A stretch of 64,000 bases of DNA from a virus: IMG/VR virus record IMGVR_UViG_3300005805_000049, positions 32,001-96,000 of that record. The stretch is one strand, 5' to 3'. The notes beneath the pieces were generated by a model. It made no database searches. It saw nothing but the letters and a program-made list of their open reading frames with translations, and was not told where the DNA came from. The translations under genes were made by a program, and so were the position numbers. Below are positions 4,814 to 55,566 of the stretch, one piece after another. Positions within the stretch are counted from its first letter, which is position 1; every line of letters starts with the position of its first letter.

Positions 4814-5461
4814 ATGAAACTTATTACAGAGTTAATGGAAGGAATTTCTTACATTTCTGAAGCAAGAGAAGACGGTAAGAAAAACCTTTATATTGAAGGA
4901 GTATTCATGCAATATGATACTCCAAATAGAAACGGAAGAATCTACAATCGCTCTATTATGGAACGAGAAGTTAATCGTTATGTCAATGAAGTAGTTTCAC
5001 AAAAAAGAGCTTATGGCGAACTGAACCACCCATCCGGACCCCAAATTAATTTGGATCGTGTTTGCCACATTATCGAGAACTTAGAACTAAGGTCTAATGG
5101 TGAAGTACTTGGTAAAGCCAGAGTAGTTGATACTCCAATGGGTAATATTGTCAAAGGTCTTTTAGAAGGCGGAGCAAACCTTGGTGTTTCTTCACGAGGT
5201 CTCGGATCTTTGAAAGAAGGCAAAAATGGCATTATGGAAGTTCAACAAGACTTCCGCTTGGTCACGGCAGCCGATGTTGTCGCTGATCCATCAGCCCCAA
5301 GAGCTTATATTAATGGAATCATGGAAAACGTTGACTGGGTATTTAATGAAGCAAATGGCGAATGGATTAAACAAACTCAAAAACACATTCACTCACTATC
5401 AAAAACACAATTAGAAGAACAGAAGATTGTTCTTTTCAAAAATTTCTTGAAAACTCTTTAA
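4814..5461 (+). CDS. gp21: Prohead protease
   Basis: NRNGRIY, GELNHP, GVSSRGLGS, DVVADPSAP. Confidence 0.97.
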   Translation: MKLITELMEGISYISEAREDGKKNLYIEGVFMQYDTPNRNGRIYNRSIMEREVNRYVNEVVSQKRAYGELNHPSGPQINLDRVCHIIENLELRSNGEVLGKARVVDTPMGNIVKGLLEGGANLGVSSRGLGSLKEGKNGIMEVQQDFRLVTAADVVADPSAPRAYINGIMENVDWVFNEANGEWIKQTQKHIHSLSKTQLEEQKIVLFKNFLKTL

Positions 5462-5499: not shown

Positions 5500-6501
5500 A
5501 TGGCTAAAAAGAAGTTAGAAGAACAAGTTGAAAATGTAGAAATTGATTCTTCTGTTGACGAAACAATTGAAGAAACAACTGCATCAGATTCAATTGAAAT
5601 GCAACCATCAGACGCTTCACGTGCATCGATGATGGCTCAGGCTACCACACAAATGGCTGCAATGGACAAGTCAATGCTTGCTCAAGTACTAGCAATGATG
5701 AACTCCAAAGAGTTTGCCAAAAACATTCCCGACGACGCTGCTGACAAAAACCGTCAGTCAGTTGCAATGAAGGGTGCAATGAAAGAAGACGTTGCTGAGC
5801 TATTCGATGGCGAGCAACTTTCCGAAGAATTTAAAGAAAAGACTGCTGTTCTATTCGAAGCTGCAGTGACAGCTCGTGTAAATCAGATCGAAGTTGAACT
5901 AAAGGAAAAGTTTGATAGCGATCTTGAACAGCAAGTTGGTGAGATTACTGAAACGCTTTCTGAACAAGTCGATCAGTATCTTTCATATGTTGCCGAACAA
6001 TGGGTCAAAGAAAATCAAATTGCGATTGAATCGTCACTTCGCAATGAAATGACCGAAAGCTTCATTGTTGGTCTAAAGGATCTGTTTGAGCAACATTACA
6101 TTCAATTCCCTGAAGACAAAGTAGACGTTGTCGAAGCTCTTGCTGAAAAGGTTGACAACCTCGAAGAACAACTGAATGACCAAATCAATGCGAACCTCGA
6201 ACTAGTCGAAGCTGTTCATGAATATTCAAAGAAACAGCTATTGGACGAAGCTTCTGAAGGACTGGCACTCTCTCAAGTTGAGAAGTTCCATACGCTTGCT
6301 GAGTCAGTAGAGTTTGACTATGACGAAGAAGCTTATAAGAATAAGCTGAATATCATCAAAGAAAAATATTTTGGCGCAAAAGCGAAACCATCTACACTAT
6401 TCGAGTCAGTTGAAGTTGAGAAAACCGAAAGTGAACCAGTGTACTTGGAACCACAAATTGCTAACTATGCCAAAGCGATTTCACGTACCATCAAAAGATA
6501 A
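5500..6501 (+). CDS. gp22: Prohead core scaffold protein
   Basis: LSEEFKEK..LFEAAV, YLSYVAEQW..EN; acidic coiled coil between gp21 and gp23. Confidence 0.95.
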   Translation: MAKKKLEEQVENVEIDSSVDETIEETTASDSIEMQPSDASRASMMAQATTQMAAMDKSMLAQVLAMMNSKEFAKNIPDDAADKNRQSVAMKGAMKEDVAELFDGEQLSEEFKEKTAVLFEAAVTARVNQIEVELKEKFDSDLEQQVGEITETLSEQVDQYLSYVAEQWVKENQIAIESSLRNEMTESFIVGLKDLFEQHYIQFPEDKVDVVEALAEKVDNLEEQLNDQINANLELVEAVHEYSKKQLLDEASEGLALSQVEKFHTLAESVEFDYDEEAYKNKLNIIKEKYFGAKAKPSTLFESVEVEKTESEPVYLEPQIANYAKAISRTIKR

Positions 6502-6508
6502 GTTATTT

Positions 6509-6516
6509 TATAAATA
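6509..6516 (+). promoter_or_regulatory. Late promoter TATAAATA for gp23
   Basis: Exact consensus upstream of a GGGAG RBS. Confidence 0.85.
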
Positions 6517-6554
6517 GTAAATAAACCCAAAAAATAAAAGGGAGAATAATAAAA

Positions 6555-7898
6555 ATGTTATCAGAACAACTAGTTGCAAAGTGGAAGCCAATTCTTGAGC
6601 ATGAAGAACTTTCACCAATTAAAGATCTTCATCGCCGTAATGTAACTGCAGCACTTCTCGAGAACACAGAAAAAGCTCTACGTGAAAACGCTGCTTACTC
6701 TTCACAGTTCCTAGTTGAAACACCAGTCAATGCGATGGGTGCTTCTTCTTCAACTGCAAGCGATGGCTCCATTGACATCTTCGATCCAGTTCTAATTTCT
6801 CTGGTTCGTCGTTCAATGCCAAACCTTATTGCGTATGACATCTGCGGCGTTCAGCCAATGACCGGTCCAACAGGACTAATCTTCGCAATGCGCGCCCGTT
6901 ATGCTAACCAAACTGGCACAGAAACCTTCTATCAAGAAGTTAACACTGCATTCTCTTCAGTCGTTACCGGTGCTAACACACTTGGTCAGAAGCACGTTGG
7001 TGATACACCAGGCAACACAACTGTAACAGCTAACCTTGCTGAAACCGGTCTATACAACTTTGGTTCCGGCATGTCAACAGCTCAAGCTGAAGCTCTTGGC
7101 GATGCTTCAAACGTTGCTTTTGCTCAAATGGCTTTCTCAATCGAGAAGGTTCCAGTAACTGCAAAGTCACGTGCTCTAAAAGCTGAGTACACGATGGAAC
7201 TCGCTCAGGACCTTAAAGCATCTCATGGTCTTGACGCTGAAACCGAACTATCTAACATTCTTTCTAGCGAAATTCTCGCAGAAATCAACCGTGAAGTAGT
7301 TCGTACAATCTACGTAACAGCTCAAAAAGGTGCAACAACCGGCACAACCACAGCTGGTATTTTCGATCTTGATACAGACTCAAACGGCCGCTGGTCAGTT
7401 GAAAAGTTCAAGGGCCTAATGTTCCAAATCGAACGTGAAGCTAACAAGATTGCCAAAGACACCCGTAGAGGTAAGGGTAACGTAATCATCTGCTCTTCAG
7501 ATGTTGCTTCTGCTCTACAAATGGCTGGCATTCTCGATTATGCTCCAGCTCTAAATTCAAATCAGCTAAACGTCGACGATACTGGCAATACATTTGCTGG
7601 TGTTCTCAACGGTCGTATGCGCGTTTACATCGATCCATATGCAACCGGTTCTAACTACATGGTAGTTGGTTATAAGGGTCCTGGTCCATTCGATGCTGGT
7701 CTATTCTACTGCCCATACGTTCCACTACAAATGGTTCGTGCAGTCGATCAGGATTCATTCCATCCAAAGATCGGGTTTAAGACTCGTTATGGCATGGTTG
7801 CAAATCCATTCGCTGAAGGTTCAACAGCTGGTGCTGGTGCTCTAACAAAAGACTCTAACGTATACTACCGCAGAGTGCTTGTTACAAACCTCATGTAA
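6555..7898 (+). CDS. gp23: Major capsid protein
   Basis: GVQPMTGPTGLIFAMR, KSRALKAEYTMELAQDLKA, FYCPYVPL, KIGFKTRYG. Confidence 0.99.
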   Translation: MLSEQLVAKWKPILEHEELSPIKDLHRRNVTAALLENTEKALRENAAYSSQFLVETPVNAMGASSSTASDGSIDIFDPVLISLVRRSMPNLIAYDICGVQPMTGPTGLIFAMRARYANQTGTETFYQEVNTAFSSVVTGANTLGQKHVGDTPGNTTVTANLAETGLYNFGSGMSTAQAEALGDASNVAFAQMAFSIEKVPVTAKSRALKAEYTMELAQDLKASHGLDAETELSNILSSEILAEINREVVRTIYVTAQKGATTGTTTAGIFDLDTDSNGRWSVEKFKGLMFQIEREANKIAKDTRRGKGNVIICSSDVASALQMAGILDYAPALNSNQLNVDDTGNTFAGVLNGRMRVYIDPYATGSNYMVVGYKGPGPFDAGLFYCPYVPLQMVRAVDQDSFHPKIGFKTRYGMVANPFAEGSTAGAGALTKDSNVYYRRVLVTNLM

Positions 7899-7920
7899 GG
7901 TTTGTCAAATAACCAACTAG

Positions 7921-7948
7921 AAAGAGGGGCAGTTGCCCCTCTTTTTTT
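7921..7948 (+). terminator. Intrinsic terminator after gp23 (possibly bidirectional)
   Basis: AAAGAGGGGC-agtt-GCCCCTCTTT followed by a T-tract. Confidence 0.9.
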
Positions 7949-7995
7949 ATGCCAACAGCCATTTAGGAGCATCACGTTTGGTATACTTTATTACC

Positions 7996-8283
7996 TCAAA
8001 CGAGATGCTTGTTCTTGTAAGCATGGACGAGTGCACGTTCAGCTTCATCCTCAACGTTGTTGCGATATATCAACCGTCCATTATAGACCTTTGCAAAAAG
8101 CCGACCTCTTTCATATGCCCACGCTTCTTTGCAACCTGCAATATCGTAATTGAAAGGCTTGTTGGTCAACACGGAATTATATCCCAGCTGAAACCAGCCG
8201 TTTCTGATGATTTGCTTGTAAGTCGTCTTGACAACACGAGTATTTCCCGACTGATACGCCTTGCTCTTGCGAGTGTTAGCCAT
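7996..8283 (-). CDS. Hypothetical protein, early, minus strand
   Basis: AAAGGA RBS 7 nt before the ATG, own sigma70-like promoter, converges on the gp23 terminator. Confidence 0.7.
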   Translation of the reverse strand: MANTRKSKAYQSGNTRVVKTTYKQIIRNGWFQLGYNSVLTNKPFNYDIAGCKEAWAYERGRLFAKVYNGRLIYRNNVEDEAERALVHAYKNKHLV

Positions 8284-8312
8284 GTCGAAGTCCTTTCGAT
8301 TGCTTCAAAGGC

Positions 8313-8340
8313 AACATACACCAATAGTTGAACAGGTCAA
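8313..8340 (-). promoter_or_regulatory. sigma70-like promoter TTGACC-16-TATGTT
   Basis: Same TTGACCTG..TG-TAT pattern as the promoters at 13101(-) and 47438(+). Confidence 0.6.
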
Positions 8341-8370
8341 CAGCTAAATTTGCTAGATGATAAATAATAA

Positions 8371-8476
8371 ATGAGAGATAAGGTGTTGCGTACTCTCAAC
8401 CAAATCCTCTGAATAACGAGAATTAAAAAAACACCAACAGAGGATATCTAAGGGAGCTTTTCAGCTCCCTTTTTTT
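8371..8476 (+). ncRNA. Candidate late small structured RNA (two hairpins with loop-loop pairing)
   Basis: GATAAATA late promoter 8359-8366; stems TGAGAG/CTCTCA and ATCCTCTG/CAGAGGAT; loops GGTGTT/AACACC are complementary; ends in a terminator. Confidence 0.6.
8450..8476 (+). terminator. Intrinsic terminator
   Basis: AAGGGAGC-ttttca-GCTCCCTT plus T-tract. Confidence 0.9.
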
Positions 8477-8512
8477 GTTTTGATAAATACTATCATTTCA
8501 AGGAGATTTGCA

Positions 8513-8902
8513 ATGGCAAGACCTAAAGGCTCACCAAATAAAAACAAATTACAGCTCTCTCCAGACAAACAACTGTCTCCTGATCATGTTGCTGAAGTAA
8601 AACAAAAAGCTAAGGCCGCTCAATCGAAGAGAAAGCCTCGGAAAACAGAAACGGAAAAGATCGAAAATGCGTTAGATACGATCCGTAAAATGATGGGACA
8701 AAAAAGAGCAAAGGCTGCTGTAAAACCATCTGATAATTATGATGTTGGTTACAAATTTGCTGAACCTTTAGCGGGAAAGAGAAAAACTGCAGCTGAACTG
8801 GCAAAGATCGCATTGGAAAAGGATCCTTCACGCGACAGATCGATTGAAACGACTGAAACTTATGCTAAAGCTAGACTAAAAAGAGTAAAAGGGTCACAAT
8901 AA
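8513..8902 (+). CDS. Basic late protein with an AT-hook-like N-terminus
   Basis: AAGGAG RBS, GATAAATA at 8482-8489, MARPKGSPNK motif, Lys-rich. Confidence 0.65.
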   Translation: MARPKGSPNKNKLQLSPDKQLSPDHVAEVKQKAKAAQSKRKPRKTETEKIENALDTIRKMMGQKRAKAAVKPSDNYDVGYKFAEPLAGKRKTAAELAKIALEKDPSRDRSIETTETYAKARLKRVKGSQ

Positions 8903-10183
8903 ATGTTATCGTTTAAGCAATACATTCTAGAACAACAGATTATCCTTGAAGATAGGATATCTTTTATCAAAAAGCAGTTTCCTGGCAATGAACACGTTGT
9001 CGACTTTTTTGCTACAAATGCAGATCCGACACCAAACAAAATCCACACACAGTGGATTATGAATCAGTATAAAAAAGGCAATATTAAACACGAAGACCAC
9101 GAACGAGTTCGAAATGCATTGGAACATTTTGGTAATCCAGCAGTAAAGAGACAATTAAAGGCTGCTGGACACCCAACTGATGTTAATCAGCATAGTTTAT
9201 CTAGCCTAGAATCGGCTATTGCTCCCCACATTGGTGCAAAATCACGCAAGCAACAACAAAAAGAAATTAAAGTTGAAGGTGCTGATTTAGTTCACAACGA
9301 CAAGCAATTAGGGGTTACTGTCCATCACATAAAGACTGAACAGGCTTCTTGTGCGTATGGTGCGAACACAAAATGGTGCACGTCCGGAGAAAAAGACAAT
9401 CAGTTTAAACGTCATGATAAATTGGGCCCTGTTTATGTTGTTCAACATCAAGGAAAGAAATACCAGTTCCACACTGCTACTGCTCAGTTAAAAGACGAAC
9501 AAAACCAAGATGTTTCGTTCAAGGATTTGCACCCAGACATTGCAAAATCATTGGGACAATCGACACATTCAGAAATTGCAAAAGCAAATGTTATGTTTGG
9601 CAATCCTCATGCGGCAGCCGATCACTTGACAAAAGCATTATCGGATAGCGACTCGTTGCTTCGTCAAAAGGCAATCCAACACCCAAATGTTACAGCGGAG
9701 CACATAACAAAGGCTCTAAATGACGATAATTGGAAAGTTCGAGAAGCTGCTATTAAACATCCAAACGCAACGTCAGAACACGTAAGCAAGGCATTAAACG
9801 ATACAGATGCTAAAGTGGTTAAAGCAGCAATTCAACACCCAAAAATGAGTGCAGAACATATTACAACAGCTCTTGAAACTGGAGAATCTCTTACACGACA
9901 TACCGTAATGCAGCACCCAGCAGCTACTGCTGAACATATAACAAAAGCTCTAGCAGATAGAAACTCTAGTGTTCGTGTTATAGCTCTCAGACACCCAAAC
10001 GTCAATATACAACATTTAGAAGTTGCTTCAAAAAGCAATGACCCCTCACTACGTGCTGCAGCGATGTATCATCCAAAAGCAACGATGGAGCAACTAAAAG
10101 TCGGATTAAAAGATCCTGATCCAGTTGTTTCAGATGCTGCATATACAGCACATAAAAGAAAAATAGCAGCAGGAGAAAAGTAA
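8903..10183 (+). CDS. Putative head-internal protein with a PcfJ-like domain and HEAT-like repeats
   Basis: MLSFKQYILE N-terminus; ASCAYGANTKWCTS motif; seven 26-aa repeats. Confidence 0.65.
   Translation: MLSFKQYILEQQIILEDRISFIKKQFPGNEHVVDFFATNADPTPNKIHTQWIMNQYKKGNIKHEDHERVRNALEHFGNPAVKRQLKAAGHPTDVNQHSLSSLESAIAPHIGAKSRKQQQKEIKVEGADLVHNDKQLGVTVHHIKTEQASCAYGANTKWCTSGEKDNQFKRHDKLGPVYVVQHQGKKYQFHTATAQLKDEQNQDVSFKDLHPDIAKSLGQSTHSEIAKANVMFGNPHAAADHLTKALSDSDSLLRQKAIQHPNVTAEHITKALNDDNWKVREAAIKHPNATSEHVSKALNDTDAKVVKAAIQHPKMSAEHITTALETGESLTRHTVMQHPAATAEHITKALADRNSSVRVIALRHPNVNIQHLEVASKSNDPSLRAAAMYHPKATMEQLKVGLKDPDPVVSDAAYTAHKRKIAAGEK
9608..10160 (+). repeat. About 7 x 26-aa helical repeats (A.EHITKAL.D.D..VR.AA..HPN)
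   Basis: Visible in the translation. Confidence 0.85.
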
Positions 10184-10731
10184 TGGATGCAAGATTAGAA
10201 ACTCCTGAATCGATCAATTTCGTTAATCCTCTTCTTTTCAAGTTCCAGATAAAGAAGACTCCGACTACAAATTACTTTGTTCAGAGTGTTAACATTCCCG
10301 GAATCTCGATGAGAGAAGTTGAGCAACCAAACCCTTTCGTCAAAATTCCTTATGGAGGAGACCATCTATTATTTGACGATTTGATGATTAACTATAAAGT
10401 CGATGAAGATCTGAATAACTACTTGGAAATCTACAATTGGATTAAGTCAATGGGATTTCCTGATAACTTTGGACAATATAAGTCTCTTGCTGACTTACCA
10501 AAAACGTCAGGAGAAGGGCTGGTATCAGATATCTCTTTAGTTATTCTTTCTAATGCAAGAATACCAACTTATGAAGTATTGTTCAGAGACGCTTTTCCTG
10601 TTTCAACGTCTTCTCTAATTTTCGATACAACCAAACCAGACGTTGAGTTTCTCGAAGCGTCTGCAACATTTCGTTATACATCGTTTTCAATAAAGTCAGT
10701 AAATGATCCAACAACTGGACAAAGTGGTTGA
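10183..10731 (+). CDS. gp3: Tail completion / tube terminator protein
   Basis: FVQSVNIPGI, VDEDLNNYLEIYNWI, FRDAFPVS, ATFRY. Confidence 0.9.
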   Translation: MDARLETPESINFVNPLLFKFQIKKTPTTNYFVQSVNIPGISMREVEQPNPFVKIPYGGDHLLFDDLMINYKVDEDLNNYLEIYNWIKSMGFPDNFGQYKSLADLPKTSGEGLVSDISLVILSNARIPTYEVLFRDAFPVSTSSLIFDTTKPDVEFLEASATFRYTSFSIKSVNDPTTGQSG

Positions 10732-29975: not shown

Positions 29976-30137
29976 ATGGCAACAACGGTTGCAAGTGCAA
30001 CGTCTGGGATTGCAGACGTCGCAAAATCTATGCTTGGCACTATCAAAAAAGCAATTGTCAAGGGATTTGTTAAAATCCAAGAAGGCCAGATTCGTCGAGC
30101 AAGACGAATGATCGAAAACAAGACCTATCCGTTCTAA
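29976..30137 (+). CDS. 53-aa hypothetical protein co-transcribed with hsp20
   Basis: GAGGAG RBS; ends just before the terminator. Confidence 0.6.
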   Translation: MATTVASATSGIADVAKSMLGTIKKAIVKGFVKIQEGQIRRARRMIENKTYPF

Positions 30138-30142
30138 TAAAT

Positions 30143-30170
30143 AAACGGGGGGAGAAATCCCCCCGTTTTT
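30143..30170 (+). terminator. Intrinsic terminator
   Basis: AAACGGGGGGA-gaaa-TCCCCCCGTTT TT. Confidence 0.9.
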
Positions 30171-30172
30171 CG

Positions 30173-30201
30173 TTGACAATTCTCTTTCCTGCAATTACAA
30201 T
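30173..30201 (+). promoter_or_regulatory. Promoter TTGACA-17-TACAAT for the DNA polymerase
   Basis: Near-perfect sigma70 consensus. Confidence 0.8.
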
Positions 30202-47437: not shown

Positions 47438-47465
47438 TTGACCTGGTTTTGGTTGGCTGTATAAT
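47438..47465 (+). promoter_or_regulatory. Promoter TTGACC-16-TATAAT for primase
   Basis: At the late-to-early boundary; inside an inverted repeat reaching the RBS. Confidence 0.75.
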
Positions 47466-54673: not shown

Positions 54674-54750
54674 GGTCACGTAGCTCAGCTGGATAGAGCA
54701 TCTGCCTTCTAAGCAGATGGTCGCAGGTTCGAGTCCTGCCGTGATCGCCA
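54674..54750 (+). tRNA. tRNA-Arg(UCU)
   Basis: Cloverleaf, anticodon TCT 54708-54710, GTTCGAGTC, encoded CCA. Confidence 0.97.
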
Positions 54751-54770
54751 CTAACTTGAAAGGATATATA

Positions 54771-55070
54771 ATGATAGCTATTGATCTTCGAGACTCTATT
54801 GTATATGAACAATACTTAGAATCGATGAAACGGTTTGCTGATCTTCATATGTACGAGATGATGAGAATGGACCGTAACACAAGAATGCATTATTTATCTT
54901 CTGAAATTGAGAAACTTGTTTCGCCAGAGTTTATCAATGCGCATATTTGTAAGCGTGAGGAATTTCTAGATACAATGGACAGTGTTGTTGGGTCTCTTGA
55001 AGAAGATGTCCGTCAACATTTTACTGCAAAAGCAGAAGCGTTTATTAAAACTTATATAAACAGTAAGTGA
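54771..55070 (+). CDS. Hypothetical protein between tRNAs
   Basis: AAGGA RBS before ATG 54771. Confidence 0.65.
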   Translation: MIAIDLRDSIVYEQYLESMKRFADLHMYEMMRMDRNTRMHYLSSEIEKLVSPEFINAHICKREEFLDTMDSVVGSLEEDVRQHFTAKAEAFIKTYINSK

Positions 55071-55075
55071 TCTTT

Positions 55076-55150
55076 TCCAGCGTAGCTCAATGGTAGAGCA
55101 ACCGGCTGTTAACCGGTTGGTTGTAGGTTCGAGTCCTGCCGCTGGAGCCA
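55076..55150 (+). tRNA. tRNA-Asn(GUU)
   Basis: Cloverleaf ACCGG-CTGTTAA-CCGGT, encoded CCA. Confidence 0.97.
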
Positions 55151-55156
55151 AAGTTT

Positions 55157-55234
55157 CTGGGTGTAGCTCAATTTGCGTAGAGCGCTTGGTTTGGGACCAA
55201 GAGGCTGGAGGTTCGAATCCTCTCACCTAGACCA
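55157..55234 (+). tRNA. tRNA-Pro(UGG)
   Basis: CTTGG-TTTGGGA-CCAAG, GTTCGAATC, encoded CCA; D-loop has GCG rather than GG. Confidence 0.93.
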
Positions 55235-55238
55235 AAAT

Positions 55239-55313
55239 TGGGGATTAGTTTAATTGGCAGAACGCTGGACTTTGGATCCGGTAGTCTTGGTTCGAATCCA
55301 AGATCCCCAGCCA
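55239..55313 (+). tRNA. tRNA-Gln(UUG)
   Basis: U1-A72, CTGGA-CTTTGGA-TCCGG, encoded CCA. Confidence 0.95.
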
Positions 55314-55330
55314 AAAATTGGAGAAGTTTA

Positions 55331-55482
55331 ATGCATCTACTAATCGGCGTTATCATTCTATCCAACCTAATTCAAATTTGCATGGTGTTCCTATGAAATT
55401 CAACGAGCTAATTGTACTAAGAATTTTGATTGTAATGTTGACGATCTCTCTAATCCTTGATACAATCAGGTATCATCTATAA
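55331..55482 (+). CDS. Two overlapping TM micropeptides (55331-55396, 21 aa; 55393-55482, 29 aa)
   Basis: GGAG RBS, ATGA overlap, both hydrophobic. Confidence 0.5.
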
Positions 55483-55490
55483 TCAAAAAT

Positions 55491-55566
55491 AGACCTGTAG
55501 CATAATGGTGAATGCCAGTCGCTCATAACGGCTCAGATGGGGGTTCGAGTCCCTCCAGGTCTACCA
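55491..55566 (+). tRNA. tRNA with CAU anticodon (Ile2 or elongator Met)
   Basis: AGTCG-CTCATAA-CGGCT; paired 1-72 so not an initiator; C4-G69 and C5-G68 favour Ile2. Confidence 0.92.

What the first reader, a model, noticed from the sequence alone, without database searches (positions are those of the whole stretch)
8359..8476. Stand-alone late small RNA with a kissing-loop/pseudoknot
Seen: late promoter GATAAATA (8359-8366). Hairpin 1 is TGAGAG 8372-8377 / CTCTCA 8393-8398 and hairpin 2 is ATCCTCTG 8404-8411 / CAGAGGAT 8438-8445. Loop GGTGTT (8382-8387) is complementary to loop AACACC (8430-8435), which follows an A7 run. A strong terminator comes next, and the downstream gene has its own late promoter (8482). 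Inference: an independent ~105-nt RNA that could be an antitoxin mimic, a protein decoy or a virion-associated RNA. A leaderless 13-aa ORF (8371-8412) is an alternative reading. I do not recognise the family.
Basis: partly seen in the sequence, partly recalled or inferred. Interest (0 to 1): 0.75.

Follow-up and report, generated by a model that had tools for sequence, protein, structure and literature searches.

The report
Orphan late promoter beside displaced capsid-gene terminator
The supposed new small RNA gene of this uncultured T4-like lake phage is most likely a seam left by gene shuffling behind the capsid gene, where a late-promoter-like motif and one private hairpin sit next to the clade's usual end-of-capsid-mRNA hairpin and terminator.

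Summary
The + strand folds better than shuffles (z -2.76), and no Rfam family reaches its threshold.

The unit is a composite, not a conserved RNA gene.
- **Right part (HP2, terminator, second late promoter; 8404-8512):** this is the module that follows gp23 directly in relatives. A model of HP2 plus terminator hit 43 places in 80 related loci, and 35 of them lie at the gp23 stop.
- **Left part (GATAAATA and HP1):** it has no homolog in any collection I could search.
- **Kissing loop:** the loop-loop pairing is within chance (6.3% of shuffles).
- **Targets:** none in the phage beats shuffled controls.
- **Strain variants:** those listed break no stem but are too few to test covariation.

A late RNA of about 105 nt may well be made, but nothing shows it is selected. 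Expression could not be tested. This scan noted similar orphan late-promoter-to-terminator units behind gp23 on other phage DNA. Interest is low to moderate.

The parts
6555..7898 (+). gp23 major capsid protein gene, the upstream landmark
   Evidence: Pfam Gp23 E 1.6e-152; PHROG major head protein
7921..7950 (+). Term1: terminator hairpin directly after gp23 (arms 7921-7931 / 7934-7944) plus a T run. No late promoter follows it.
   Evidence: Inverted repeat I4, 11 nt, 100% complementary; sequence; 82% similar over 39 nt to the terminator of a unit in L079
7996..8283 (-). ORF95: a real small gene on the opposite strand, function unknown
   Evidence: Homologs at 58% (P0002) and 39% (L082) identity with 27 invariant columns; AAAGGA ribosome-binding site before the ATG; AlphaFold2 mean pLDDT 79
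8313..8340 (-). Sigma70-type (early) promoter of ORF95: TTGACC, 16 nt, TATGTT, with TG before the -10 box
   Evidence: Pattern scan; shares the TTGACCTG start and the TG before the -10 box with other promoter-like sites of this genome, e.g. at 47438 and 13101
8359..8366 (+). PL1: late-promoter-like octamer GATAAATA. It lies 18 bp beyond the -35 box of the ORF95 promoter, back to back with it.
   Evidence: The 12 nt at 8358-8369 match 8481-8492 (PL2) at 11 of 12 (D3). A strain variant A>G at 8367 makes the 13 nt from 8360 equal to the gp23 promoter at 6510-6522.
8372..8398 (+). HP1: 6-bp stem with a 15-nt loop, private to this lineage. On the minus strand it is followed by a T-rich run.
   Evidence: No match to the HP1 pattern in viral contigs. 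Model R1 found nothing in 83 loci or in the phage's own genome.
8404..8445 (+). HP2: 8-bp stem with a 26-nt A-rich loop. It is the counterpart of the hairpin that precedes the gp23 terminator in relatives.
   Evidence: The loop is 18 of 21 identical to the loop of the L048 hairpin. Same position and A-rich loop in L029, L048, L051, L041 and L042, with different stems. In the model-fitted alignment, 85% of helix cells are paired.
8450..8476 (+). Term2: strong intrinsic terminator, 9-bp stem, 4-nt loop, T run
   Evidence: Blastn to the gp23 terminator/promoter junction of L041 (83% over 48 nt, E 4e-6) and of L029 (78% over 64 nt). 98.7% of cells paired across 42 distinct rows.
8482..8489 (+). 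PL2: late promoter of the ORF129-HEAT426-tail tube operon
   Evidence: Lies 24 nt before the ORF129 start region, with an AAGGAG ribosome-binding site. Same layout of T run, then ATAAATA, then start in 31 of 35 compact relatives.
8513..8902 (+). ORF129: basic protein with no known family, first gene after the element
   Evidence: no relative in viral contigs

Best explanation
The stretch is a seam between two transcription modules at a gene-insertion hot spot behind the capsid gene. It is not a conserved RNA gene. The right part (8404-8512) is the clade's normal end-of-gp23-mRNA module: a hairpin with an A-rich loop, a strong terminator, a T run, and then the late promoter of the next gene. 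An early-gene cassette now separates this module from gp23. The cassette holds ORF95 on the opposite strand with a host-type promoter and an AT-rich upstream zone, and gp23 keeps a second terminator, Term1. The left part (8341-8403), with the GATAAATA octamer and HP1, lies in that upstream zone. Read on the minus strand, it is a stem-loop with a T-rich tail ahead of an AT-rich region and a -35/-10 promoter, which is the layout of PeSL-type cassettes. T4-type late promoters need little beyond the octamer, so PL1 probably does fire late. If so, it yields an RNA of about 100-105 nt from about 8372 to about 8474-8478, made of HP1 plus the displaced 3' module. I read that RNA as a by-product. HP2 and Term2 keep their old job of stopping rightward late transcription before PL2 restarts it. 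Shown: the motifs, the folds, the match of the right part to the gp23 3' ends of relatives, the lack of homologs for the left part, the reality of ORF95, and its promoter motif. Inferred: the insertion history, the firing of PL1, and the lack of selected function.
For: (1) In 54 relatives that have both the gp23 end and the tail-tube gene, 35 have a compact junction under 150 nt and 19 carry insertions of 252-3776 nt. ORF95, ORF129 and HEAT426 have no counterpart in the 80 loci. This spot is therefore a hot spot and the island is lineage-specific. (2) Only 8444-8506 of the intergenic region matches relatives by blastn or nhmmer, and it matches their gp23 terminator-promoter junction. (3) Model R2 (HP2 plus Term2) gave 43 hits at E<=1 in 502 kb; 35 of them are on the + strand and start within -20 to +120 nt of the gp23 stop. 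(4) 25 of 35 compact junctions fold into two or more hairpins before the late promoter. L029, L048, L051, L041 and L042 have a long A-rich-loop hairpin before the terminator, as HP2 does, with different stems and a similar loop. (5) L029, L028 and L040 have two terminators after gp23 with no cassette between them. That is the layout of the window minus ORF95. (6) Model R1 (HP1 plus HP2) found no paralog in the 126-kb genome (self, then E 2.2) and nothing better than E 3.3 in 83 loci. Exact-stem patterns found 0 stretches in viral contigs. (7) The ORF95 promoter resembles other sigma70-like sites of this genome. (8) The loop-loop pairing is within chance, and no phage ribosome-binding region pairs better than with shuffled loops (fractions 0.33, 0.55 and 0.33).
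Against: The octamer is a good late-promoter candidate. It is 11 of 12 identical to PL2. In related strains the 13 nt from 8360 equal the gp23 promoter. ATAAATA is not common: 22 copies in 64 kb against 15.9 expected, and 18 of the 22 are on the gene strand. The predicted start falls on the first base of a 5' hairpin, and the unit ends in a strong terminator, as a stable small RNA would. The + strand folds better than the minus strand (z -2.76 against -1.36). The listed strain variants (8367, 8401, 8402, 8404) break no stem, and 8404 A>G keeps a G-U pair on the + strand only. HP1 is a weak stem for a PeSL-type terminator, with 6 bp and a 15-nt loop, and it is not a repeated motif in this genome. 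Sequence similarity of HP2 to relatives is confined to the loop. Only 1 of the 35 local alignments of 8368-8449 beat most shuffles (L040, z 2.9).
Confidence: 0.55

Rival explanations
1. A genuine, selected late small RNA of about 105 nt, transcribed from PL1 and ended at Term2. It would act in trans on a host or phage RNA or protein, possibly with a loop-loop tertiary contact.
For: Promoter-like octamer of the same type as PL2 and of late promoters in relatives. The predicted start lies at the base of a 5' hairpin (passage in PMC1524935). Strong terminator. No ORF of 30 aa or more across 8332-8460. The + strand fold has z -2.76. Listed strain variants spare the stems and both loop hexamers. 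No Rfam match at threshold, so it would be new.
Against: No homolog of the whole unit or of HP1 was found in 83 loci, the phage's own genome, IMG/VR pattern scans or isolated phages. Two thirds of the RNA is the ordinary gp23 3' module. The kissing loop is within chance. No phage target is better than shuffles. Strain divergence is about 1.6% (8 differences in 480 nt of one contig), too low to show selection, and only 40 of 351 differences were listed.
Confidence: 0.2
2. A regulatory leader. Transcripts from PL1 read HP1 and HP2 and then either stop at Term2 or pass it into ORF129-HEAT426-tail tube. This would be an attenuator or an RNA-based antitermination element, similar in layout to a promoter-proximal terminated leader.
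For: The order is promoter, two hairpins, terminator, then an operon on the same strand. The A7 run in the HP2 loop is partly complementary to the T run of Term2 (72% over 18 nt, I2), which could give an alternative pairing.
Against: The operon has its own late promoter 6 nt after the T run, as in relatives without any leader. No alternative fold appears in the minimum-energy or centroid structures. No Rfam cis-regulatory family matched. The terminator is strong and canonical.
Confidence: 0.1
3. A leaderless 13-residue peptide gene at 8371-8412.
For: An ATG lies at 8371, about where a late transcript would start.
Against: There is no ribosome-binding site. The variants at 8401-8402 and 8404 change two of the 13 codons to other residues (read). 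Such short frames are expected by chance. The pattern with the ATG found 13 stretches in IMG/VR with no similarity downstream: 9-22 of 60 bases identical.
Confidence: 0.02

Closest known systems
PeSL (promoter-early stem-loop) cassettes of T4-type phages (Arbiol et al. 2010, PMC2839356: abstract and section 13 read; Comeau et al. 2014, PMC4122927: abstract read)
   Same: A sigma70-like promoter with an AT-rich zone upstream of -35 and a nearby stem-loop, placed in front of an ORFan. It sits in a variable spot, here inside the virion module, where such cassettes are said to occur occasionally and to mark sites of indels.
   Different: PeSLs are repeated motifs (about 50 per genome) with strong, often G/C-tract stems that were shown to terminate. 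HP1 is weak, single-copy and 31 nt from the -35 box. The other half of the seam is a late-type terminator-promoter junction, not an early one.
The gp23 3' end / next-gene junction of this phage clade (defined here from 35 compact relatives; I know of no name for it)
   Same: HP2, Term2, the T run and PL2 match its order, spacing, A-rich loop and terminator.
   Different: In the window it lies 506 nt after the gp23 stop instead of directly behind it. It is preceded by a promoter-like octamer and an extra hairpin. HP2 has a longer stem and loop than most relatives.
Orphan late-promoter-to-terminator units behind gp23 noted by this scan on other phages (e1-5823020, e1-5823030; AI notes, not checked here)
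   Same: Same place (between gp23 and the next tail gene) and same logic: a late promoter running into a terminator with no ORF.
   Different: Different sequences. One of those was reported as conserved in a clade with anti-Shine-Dalgarno motifs. Here the 5' part is private to one lineage. In my relatives, the two look-alike units (L001, L079) have the octamer inside or at the stop of an inserted endonuclease-like ORF.
3'-UTR-derived bacterial small RNAs with their own promoter (recalled class, e.g. DapZ-type; not looked up here)
   Same: If the RNA is made, its body and terminator come from the 3' end of an mRNA.
   Different: In the recalled class the promoter lies inside the upstream gene and the seed is conserved. 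Here the module was cut off from its gene, and no seed or target is evident.

Membership tests
Any Rfam 15 family | Covariance-model score at or above the family's gathering score | tested here: not met
   23 matches at E<=10 in 7800-9000, all far below gathering. The best ones over the element are STnc50 (24.8 against 55 bits) and sraA (22.3 against 56 bits), both on the terminator and on the minus strand.
T4-type late promoter | TATAAATA-like octamer (first base variable in many T4-like phages) | tested here: met
   GATAAATA at 8359-8366. The same octamer is at PL2 and before the gene after gp23 in L005, L007, L008, L012 and L041. In 19 promoter-like sites of this genome the preceding base is T 9, A 7, G 3. 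The rule comes from a passage in PMC1524935.
T4-type late promoter | Lies about 20-50 nt upstream of a late gene's start | tested here: not met
   No ribosome-binding site or ORF follows; the next real start is at 8513, behind a terminator.
T4-type late promoter | Late transcripts start 6 nt downstream of the octamer | not testable with these tools
   Only assembled contigs of public runs could be laid, and no RNA contig lay on 8372-8470.
Intrinsic terminator | G+C-rich stem, short loop, followed by a T run | tested here: met
   9 pairs, 5 of them G-C, loop of 4, tail TTTTTGTTTT at 8450-8471 and beyond. It was the only such site in 7700-8800.
gp23 3'-end junction module of this clade | Upstream hairpin, terminator, T run and ATAAATA just before the next gene | tested here: met
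   Alignment A3. R2 hits at the gp23 stop in 35 of 43 cases. 93.8% of cells paired against 37.7-59.4% with slid partners, on a model-fitted alignment that leans towards the structure.
gp23 3'-end junction module of this clade | Directly follows the gp23 stop codon | tested here: not met
   HP2 starts 506 nt after the stop. Term1, ORF95 and its promoter lie between.
PeSL cassette | Sigma70-like promoter with an AT-rich region upstream of -35, in front of an ORFan | tested here: met
   TTGACC-16-TATGTT at 8340 to 8313; AT-rich 8341-8371; ORF95 has no Pfam or PHROG family.
PeSL cassette | Stable stem-loop that acts as a terminator or attenuator within or next to the promoter | tested here: inconclusive
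   On the minus strand HP1 is followed by a T-rich run, but it has only 6 bp and a 15-nt loop. The minus-strand fold is not better than shuffles (z -1.36).
PeSL cassette | Member of a repeated motif family within the genome | tested here: not met
   The 171-nt stretch is single-copy in the 126-kb record. Only the promoter core resembles other promoter-like sites.
Trans-acting small RNA with a seed | Unpaired segment with better-than-chance complementarity to target translation-initiation regions | tested here: inconclusive
   Against 260 candidate start regions of the phage, the best duplexes of loop 1, loop 2 and the linker were matched or beaten by 33%, 55% and 33% of shuffled queries. The host is unknown, so host targets could not be tested.

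The most novel reading that the evidence does not exclude
A small RNA caught at birth. A gene insertion cut the structured 3' end of the capsid mRNA loose from its gene. A new late promoter, placed back to back with the inserted gene's early promoter, then captured it. The phage would now make a free-standing late RNA of about 105 nt with a new 5' hairpin whose loop can pair with the old A-rich loop.
Probability: 0.15. Interest if true: 0.6.

Novelty: new member of a known kind. Interest (0 to 1): 0.25.

Why it matters
The result is mainly a caution and a map. In uncultured T4-like phages, the short late-promoter motif and the strong terminators at gene junctions readily produce units that look like small RNA genes when cassettes are shuffled. 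Here two thirds of the candidate is the ordinary tail of the capsid mRNA. The work also documents three things:
- The site behind gp23 is an insertion hot spot, occupied in 19 of 54 relatives.
- The clade keeps a two-hairpin end on its most abundant late mRNA.
- A small conserved early gene (ORF95) sits antisense inside the late module.

If the RNA were shown to be made and kept, it would be a dated example of how a phage small RNA arises from a 3' UTR.

Tried and rejected
**Searches for homologs of the element**
- Blastn of 7900-9000 against isolated phages found no match.
- Blastn of the 141-nt element found only 8 records, all covering the terminator part, at E 0.01-0.4.
- Blastn and nhmmer against 80 gp23 loci matched only the terminator/PL2 part.
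- Model R1 found nothing in the phage's own genome or in 83 loci.
- Exact-stem patterns for HP2 and HP1 found 0 stretches in viral contigs.
- The octamer plus the start of HP1 found 13 stretches. None has further similarity, so they are chance matches.

**Routes through the neighbouring genes**
- ORF95 gave one relative in viral contigs (39% identity) and three in metagenome contigs (33-39%). I read the upstream DNA only of the viral contigs locus L082 and saw no similar element there. I did not read L084 or L085. Model R1 scanned L082, L084 and L085 without a hit.
- ORF129 and HEAT426 have no relatives in viral contigs.
- The most useful relative is the contig encoding P0002 (58% identity to ORF95).

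**Expression**
- The two RNA runs hold only a tenth of the sampled words.
- The one I laid, X19, gave contigs on gp23 and on 8472-8508 / 8735-8770 of a relative. It gave none on 8372-8470. That is no evidence either way.

**Other checks**
- Target search within the phage found nothing above shuffles.
- The idea that 8341-8403 is a remnant of a duplicated gp23 3' end has no detectable similarity behind it.
- ORF95 function: AlphaFold2 model with pLDDT 79; Foldseek against the PDB found nothing at E<=0.001; VIA-align wide gave a best Z of 3.6, with ribosome modulation factor at Z 3.1; the Atlas hints were all below 0.9. I treat the ribosome-modulation-factor resemblance as a weak lead only.
- Other intergenic regions of this genome that hold ATAAATA (22466, -16760, 30137) showed no second orphan unit. 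The one at 30137 is a stop-codon region followed by a terminator and an early promoter.
- Supplementary files of the papers were not opened. The promoter lists in them might refine the late-promoter rule.

Full report
**What the window is.** The window is bases 32001-96000 of a 126,217-base IMG/VR virus record, estimated 74% complete. It is 38.7% G+C. Around the finding lie the T4-type prohead protease, scaffold and major capsid genes: gp21 4814-5461, gp22 5500-6501, gp23 6555-7898. The nearest isolated phages by gp23 are only 65-71% identical: Stenotrophomonas DLP_6, Sinorhizobium phiM12 and phiN3, pelagiphage Mosig and cyanophages. Public runs that hold the stretch are lake, aquatic, marine, estuary and wastewater metagenomes.

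**Check of the observation.**
- GATAAATA at 8359-8366;
- HP1 at 8372-8377 / 8393-8398;
- HP2 at 8404-8411 / 8438-8445;
- GGTGTT at 8382-8387 and AACACC at 8430-8435;
- a terminator at 8450-8471 with a T run;
- a second GATAAATA at 8482.

RNAfold returns exactly these three hairpins. Without the terminator, the + strand of 8371-8449 has z -2.76 (2 of 200 shuffles as good). The minus strand has z -1.36 (21 of 200). No Rfam family comes near its gathering score.

The kissing loop is weak evidence. Six contiguous Watson-Crick pairs between loops of these sizes and compositions occur in 6.3% of 20,000 shuffles. The duplex energy is reached by 40 of 3,000 loop shuffles and by 229 of 3,000 genome-sampled pairs.

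The element does not simply follow gp23.
- After gp23 comes a first terminator, Term1 (7921-7944 plus a T run).
- Next comes a 95-codon gene on the minus strand, 7996-8283. This ORF95 is real. It has a 58% identical homolog (P0002) and more distant ones, with 27 invariant columns, and a ribosome-binding site.
- A sigma70-type promoter (TTGACC, 16 nt, TATGTT) lies on the minus strand at 8340 to 8313. It shares its TTGACCTG start and the TG before the -10 box with other promoter-like sites of this genome.
- The late-promoter-like octamer therefore lies only 18 bp beyond the -35 box of a divergent early promoter, in its AT-rich upstream zone.

**Comparative evidence.** I fetched 80 loci around gp23 relatives, 66-90% identical.
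- In 54 loci both the gp23 end and the next conserved gene, a tail-tube-like gene (10183-10731 in the window), are present.
- 35 of these have a compact junction under 150 nt, and 31 of the 35 have ATAAATA shortly before the next start.
- 19 carry insertions of 252-3776 nt. These include GIY-YIG-like and other endonuclease-like genes.
- ORF95, ORF129 and the HEAT-repeat protein of the window have no counterpart in any of the 80 loci.
- So the site is an insertion hot spot and the 2.3-kb island of the window is lineage-specific.

**The right part is the standard gp23 3' module.**
- Of the window's intergenic region, only 8444-8506 (Term2 and PL2) matches relatives. It matches their gp23 terminator/late-promoter junction: L041 83% over 48 nt, E 4e-6; L029 78% over 64 nt.
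- Most compact junctions (25 of 35) fold into a small hairpin followed by the terminator.
- Five relatives (L029, L048, L051, L041, L042) have a hairpin with a long A-rich loop just before the terminator, like HP2. Their stems differ from HP2. The loop is similar: 18 of 21 identical between the window and L048.
- A covariance model of HP2 plus Term2 (R2) gave 43 hits at E<=1 in 502 kb. 35 of them are on the + strand and start within -20 to +120 nt of the gp23 stop.
- On the model-fitted alignment, the HP2-equivalent helix is paired in 85% of cells and the terminator helix in 98.7%. Overall 93.8% of cells are paired, against 37.7-59.4% when partners are slid. That alignment leans towards the structure, and 8-22 of the 42 distinct rows are gapped in the first helix.
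- L029, L028 and L040 have two terminators after gp23 with only a short spacer. That is the window's layout without the ORF95 cassette.

**The left part is private.**
- A model of HP1 plus HP2 without the terminator (R1) found only itself in the 126-kb genome (next hit E 2.2) and nothing better than E 3.3 in 83 loci.
- Patterns for the HP2 stems with AACACC, and for the HP1 stems with GGTGTT, found no stretch in IMG/VR.
- The octamer plus the first bases of HP1 found 13 stretches, all without further similarity.

**Look-alike units elsewhere.** Two relatives have an apparent promoter-hairpin-terminator-promoter unit (L001 and L079). In both, the first octamer overlaps the stop codon or the last codons of an inserted endonuclease-like ORF. 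The hairpin and terminator of L001 are the same sequence that directly follows gp23 in L002. These show how such units arise from shuffling.

**Strain variation.** Contigs of three DNA runs that hold 41-61% of the stretch's sampled words carry ORF95 and the element. The listed differences inside 8359-8476 are:
- 8367 A>G (all three runs);
- 8401 C>A and 8402 A>T (all three, in the linker);
- 8404 A>G (one run; keeps a G-U pair on the + strand);
- 8463 A>G and small deletions in the terminator loop and T run (one run).

None breaks a stem. However, divergence is about 8 differences in 480 nt, and only 40 of 351 differences were listed, so this is not a test of covariation. The 8367 variant makes the 13 nt from 8360 identical to the gp23 promoter at 6510-6522. 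This speaks for PL1 being a usable late promoter.

**Is an RNA made?** The T4 late promoter is an octamer at -13 to -6, with a poorly conserved first base in many T4-like phages (passage in PMC1524935). This puts the start at about 8372, the first base of HP1. ATAAATA is only mildly enriched in the window (22 copies against 15.9 expected), but it is strongly biased to the gene strand, 18 of 22. In 19 promoter-like sites, the base after the motif is mostly G or C (15 of 19). The window has A there. I judge it more likely than not that some late transcription starts here and ends at Term2. I could not test this: the RNA run I laid gave no contig on the element, which proves nothing.

**Function.** No start region of the phage pairs with the loops or the linker better than with shuffled versions. 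The 13-codon frame has no ribosome-binding site, and two of its codons change residue between strains. ORF95 gave no clue that would tie it to an RNA: no Pfam or PHROG family, no PDB fold above Z 3.6, and Atlas hints below 0.9.

**Reading.** The best account is a seam with two halves.
- 8404-8512 is the clade's end-of-capsid-mRNA module, displaced by insertion of an early-gene cassette.
- 8341-8403 is the upstream zone of that cassette's promoter. On the minus strand it has the PeSL-like order of stem-loop, T/A-rich zone, -35 and -10 (PMC2839356, abstract and section 13; PMC4122927, abstract). It does not meet the PeSL criteria of a strong stem and a repeated motif.

A late RNA of about 105 nt is probably a by-product (confidence 0.55). 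The alternatives are a selected small RNA (0.2), a leader or attenuator for the ORF129 operon (0.1) and a micropeptide (0.02). The remaining probability is unassigned.

**Earlier notes of this scan.** The scan described similar orphan late-promoter-to-terminator units behind gp23 on other phage DNA, with mixed verdicts. I did not check those.

**Novelty and interest.** This is no new RNA family. It is another example of promoter/terminator junction shuffling in T4-like phages. There is a small chance that it shows a small RNA arising from a 3' UTR. Interest 0.25.

Noticed in passing
window 7996-8283 (minus strand): ORF95 is a conserved small phage protein (invariant W..YERGRLF stretch; homologs at 58%, 39% and 33% identity) with a sigma70-type promoter. 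It sits antisense inside the late capsid/tail module. There is no Pfam or PHROG family and no solved fold above Z 3.6. A faint resemblance to ribosome modulation factor appears in two tools (Atlas row TM 0.41; 4v8g_AV Z 3.1).
   Followed up: partly
window 7899-10182; loci L001-L080 after gp23: The gap between gp23 and the tail-tube-like gene is an insertion hot spot. 19 of 54 relatives carry 252-3776 nt of unrelated cargo there, including GIY-YIG-like (L003, L079) and a 526-aa endonuclease-like gene (L001).
   Followed up: partly
gp23 3' ends of L004-L080 (35 compact loci): The clade keeps a two-hairpin end on the capsid mRNA: a variable small hairpin, in five loci with a long A-rich loop, followed by the terminator. 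Many stem changes occur on both sides. This may be a conserved mRNA-stability element worth its own covariation test.
   Followed up: partly
window 8903-10183: The HEAT-repeat protein begins MLSFKQYILE. Earlier notes of this scan read that as a T4 internal-protein capsid-targeting leader. Its stop overlaps the start of the tail-tube-like gene by one base, so the three genes share PL2.
   Followed up: no
window 30137-30200: A stop-codon region with ATAAATA is followed by a G6/C6 terminator, and 8 nt later by TTGACA-17-TACAAT. This is a textbook PeSL-like terminator/early-promoter composite in this genome.
   Followed up: no
window 79465-79492: A sigma70-like promoter has a perfect 6-bp inverted repeat (ACAGCT / AGCTGT) between its -35 and -10 boxes, another PeSL-like layout.
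   Followed up: no
window 54674-55566: Cluster of five tRNA genes: Arg-TCT, Asn, Pro, Gln and Met.
   Followed up: no
RNA run X19, contig of 510 nt laid on 8472-8508 and 8735-8770: A metatranscriptome contig of a related phage matches PL2 and part of ORF129 but has 207 other letters between them. A relative with a different first gene after the junction therefore appears in an RNA library.
   Followed up: no
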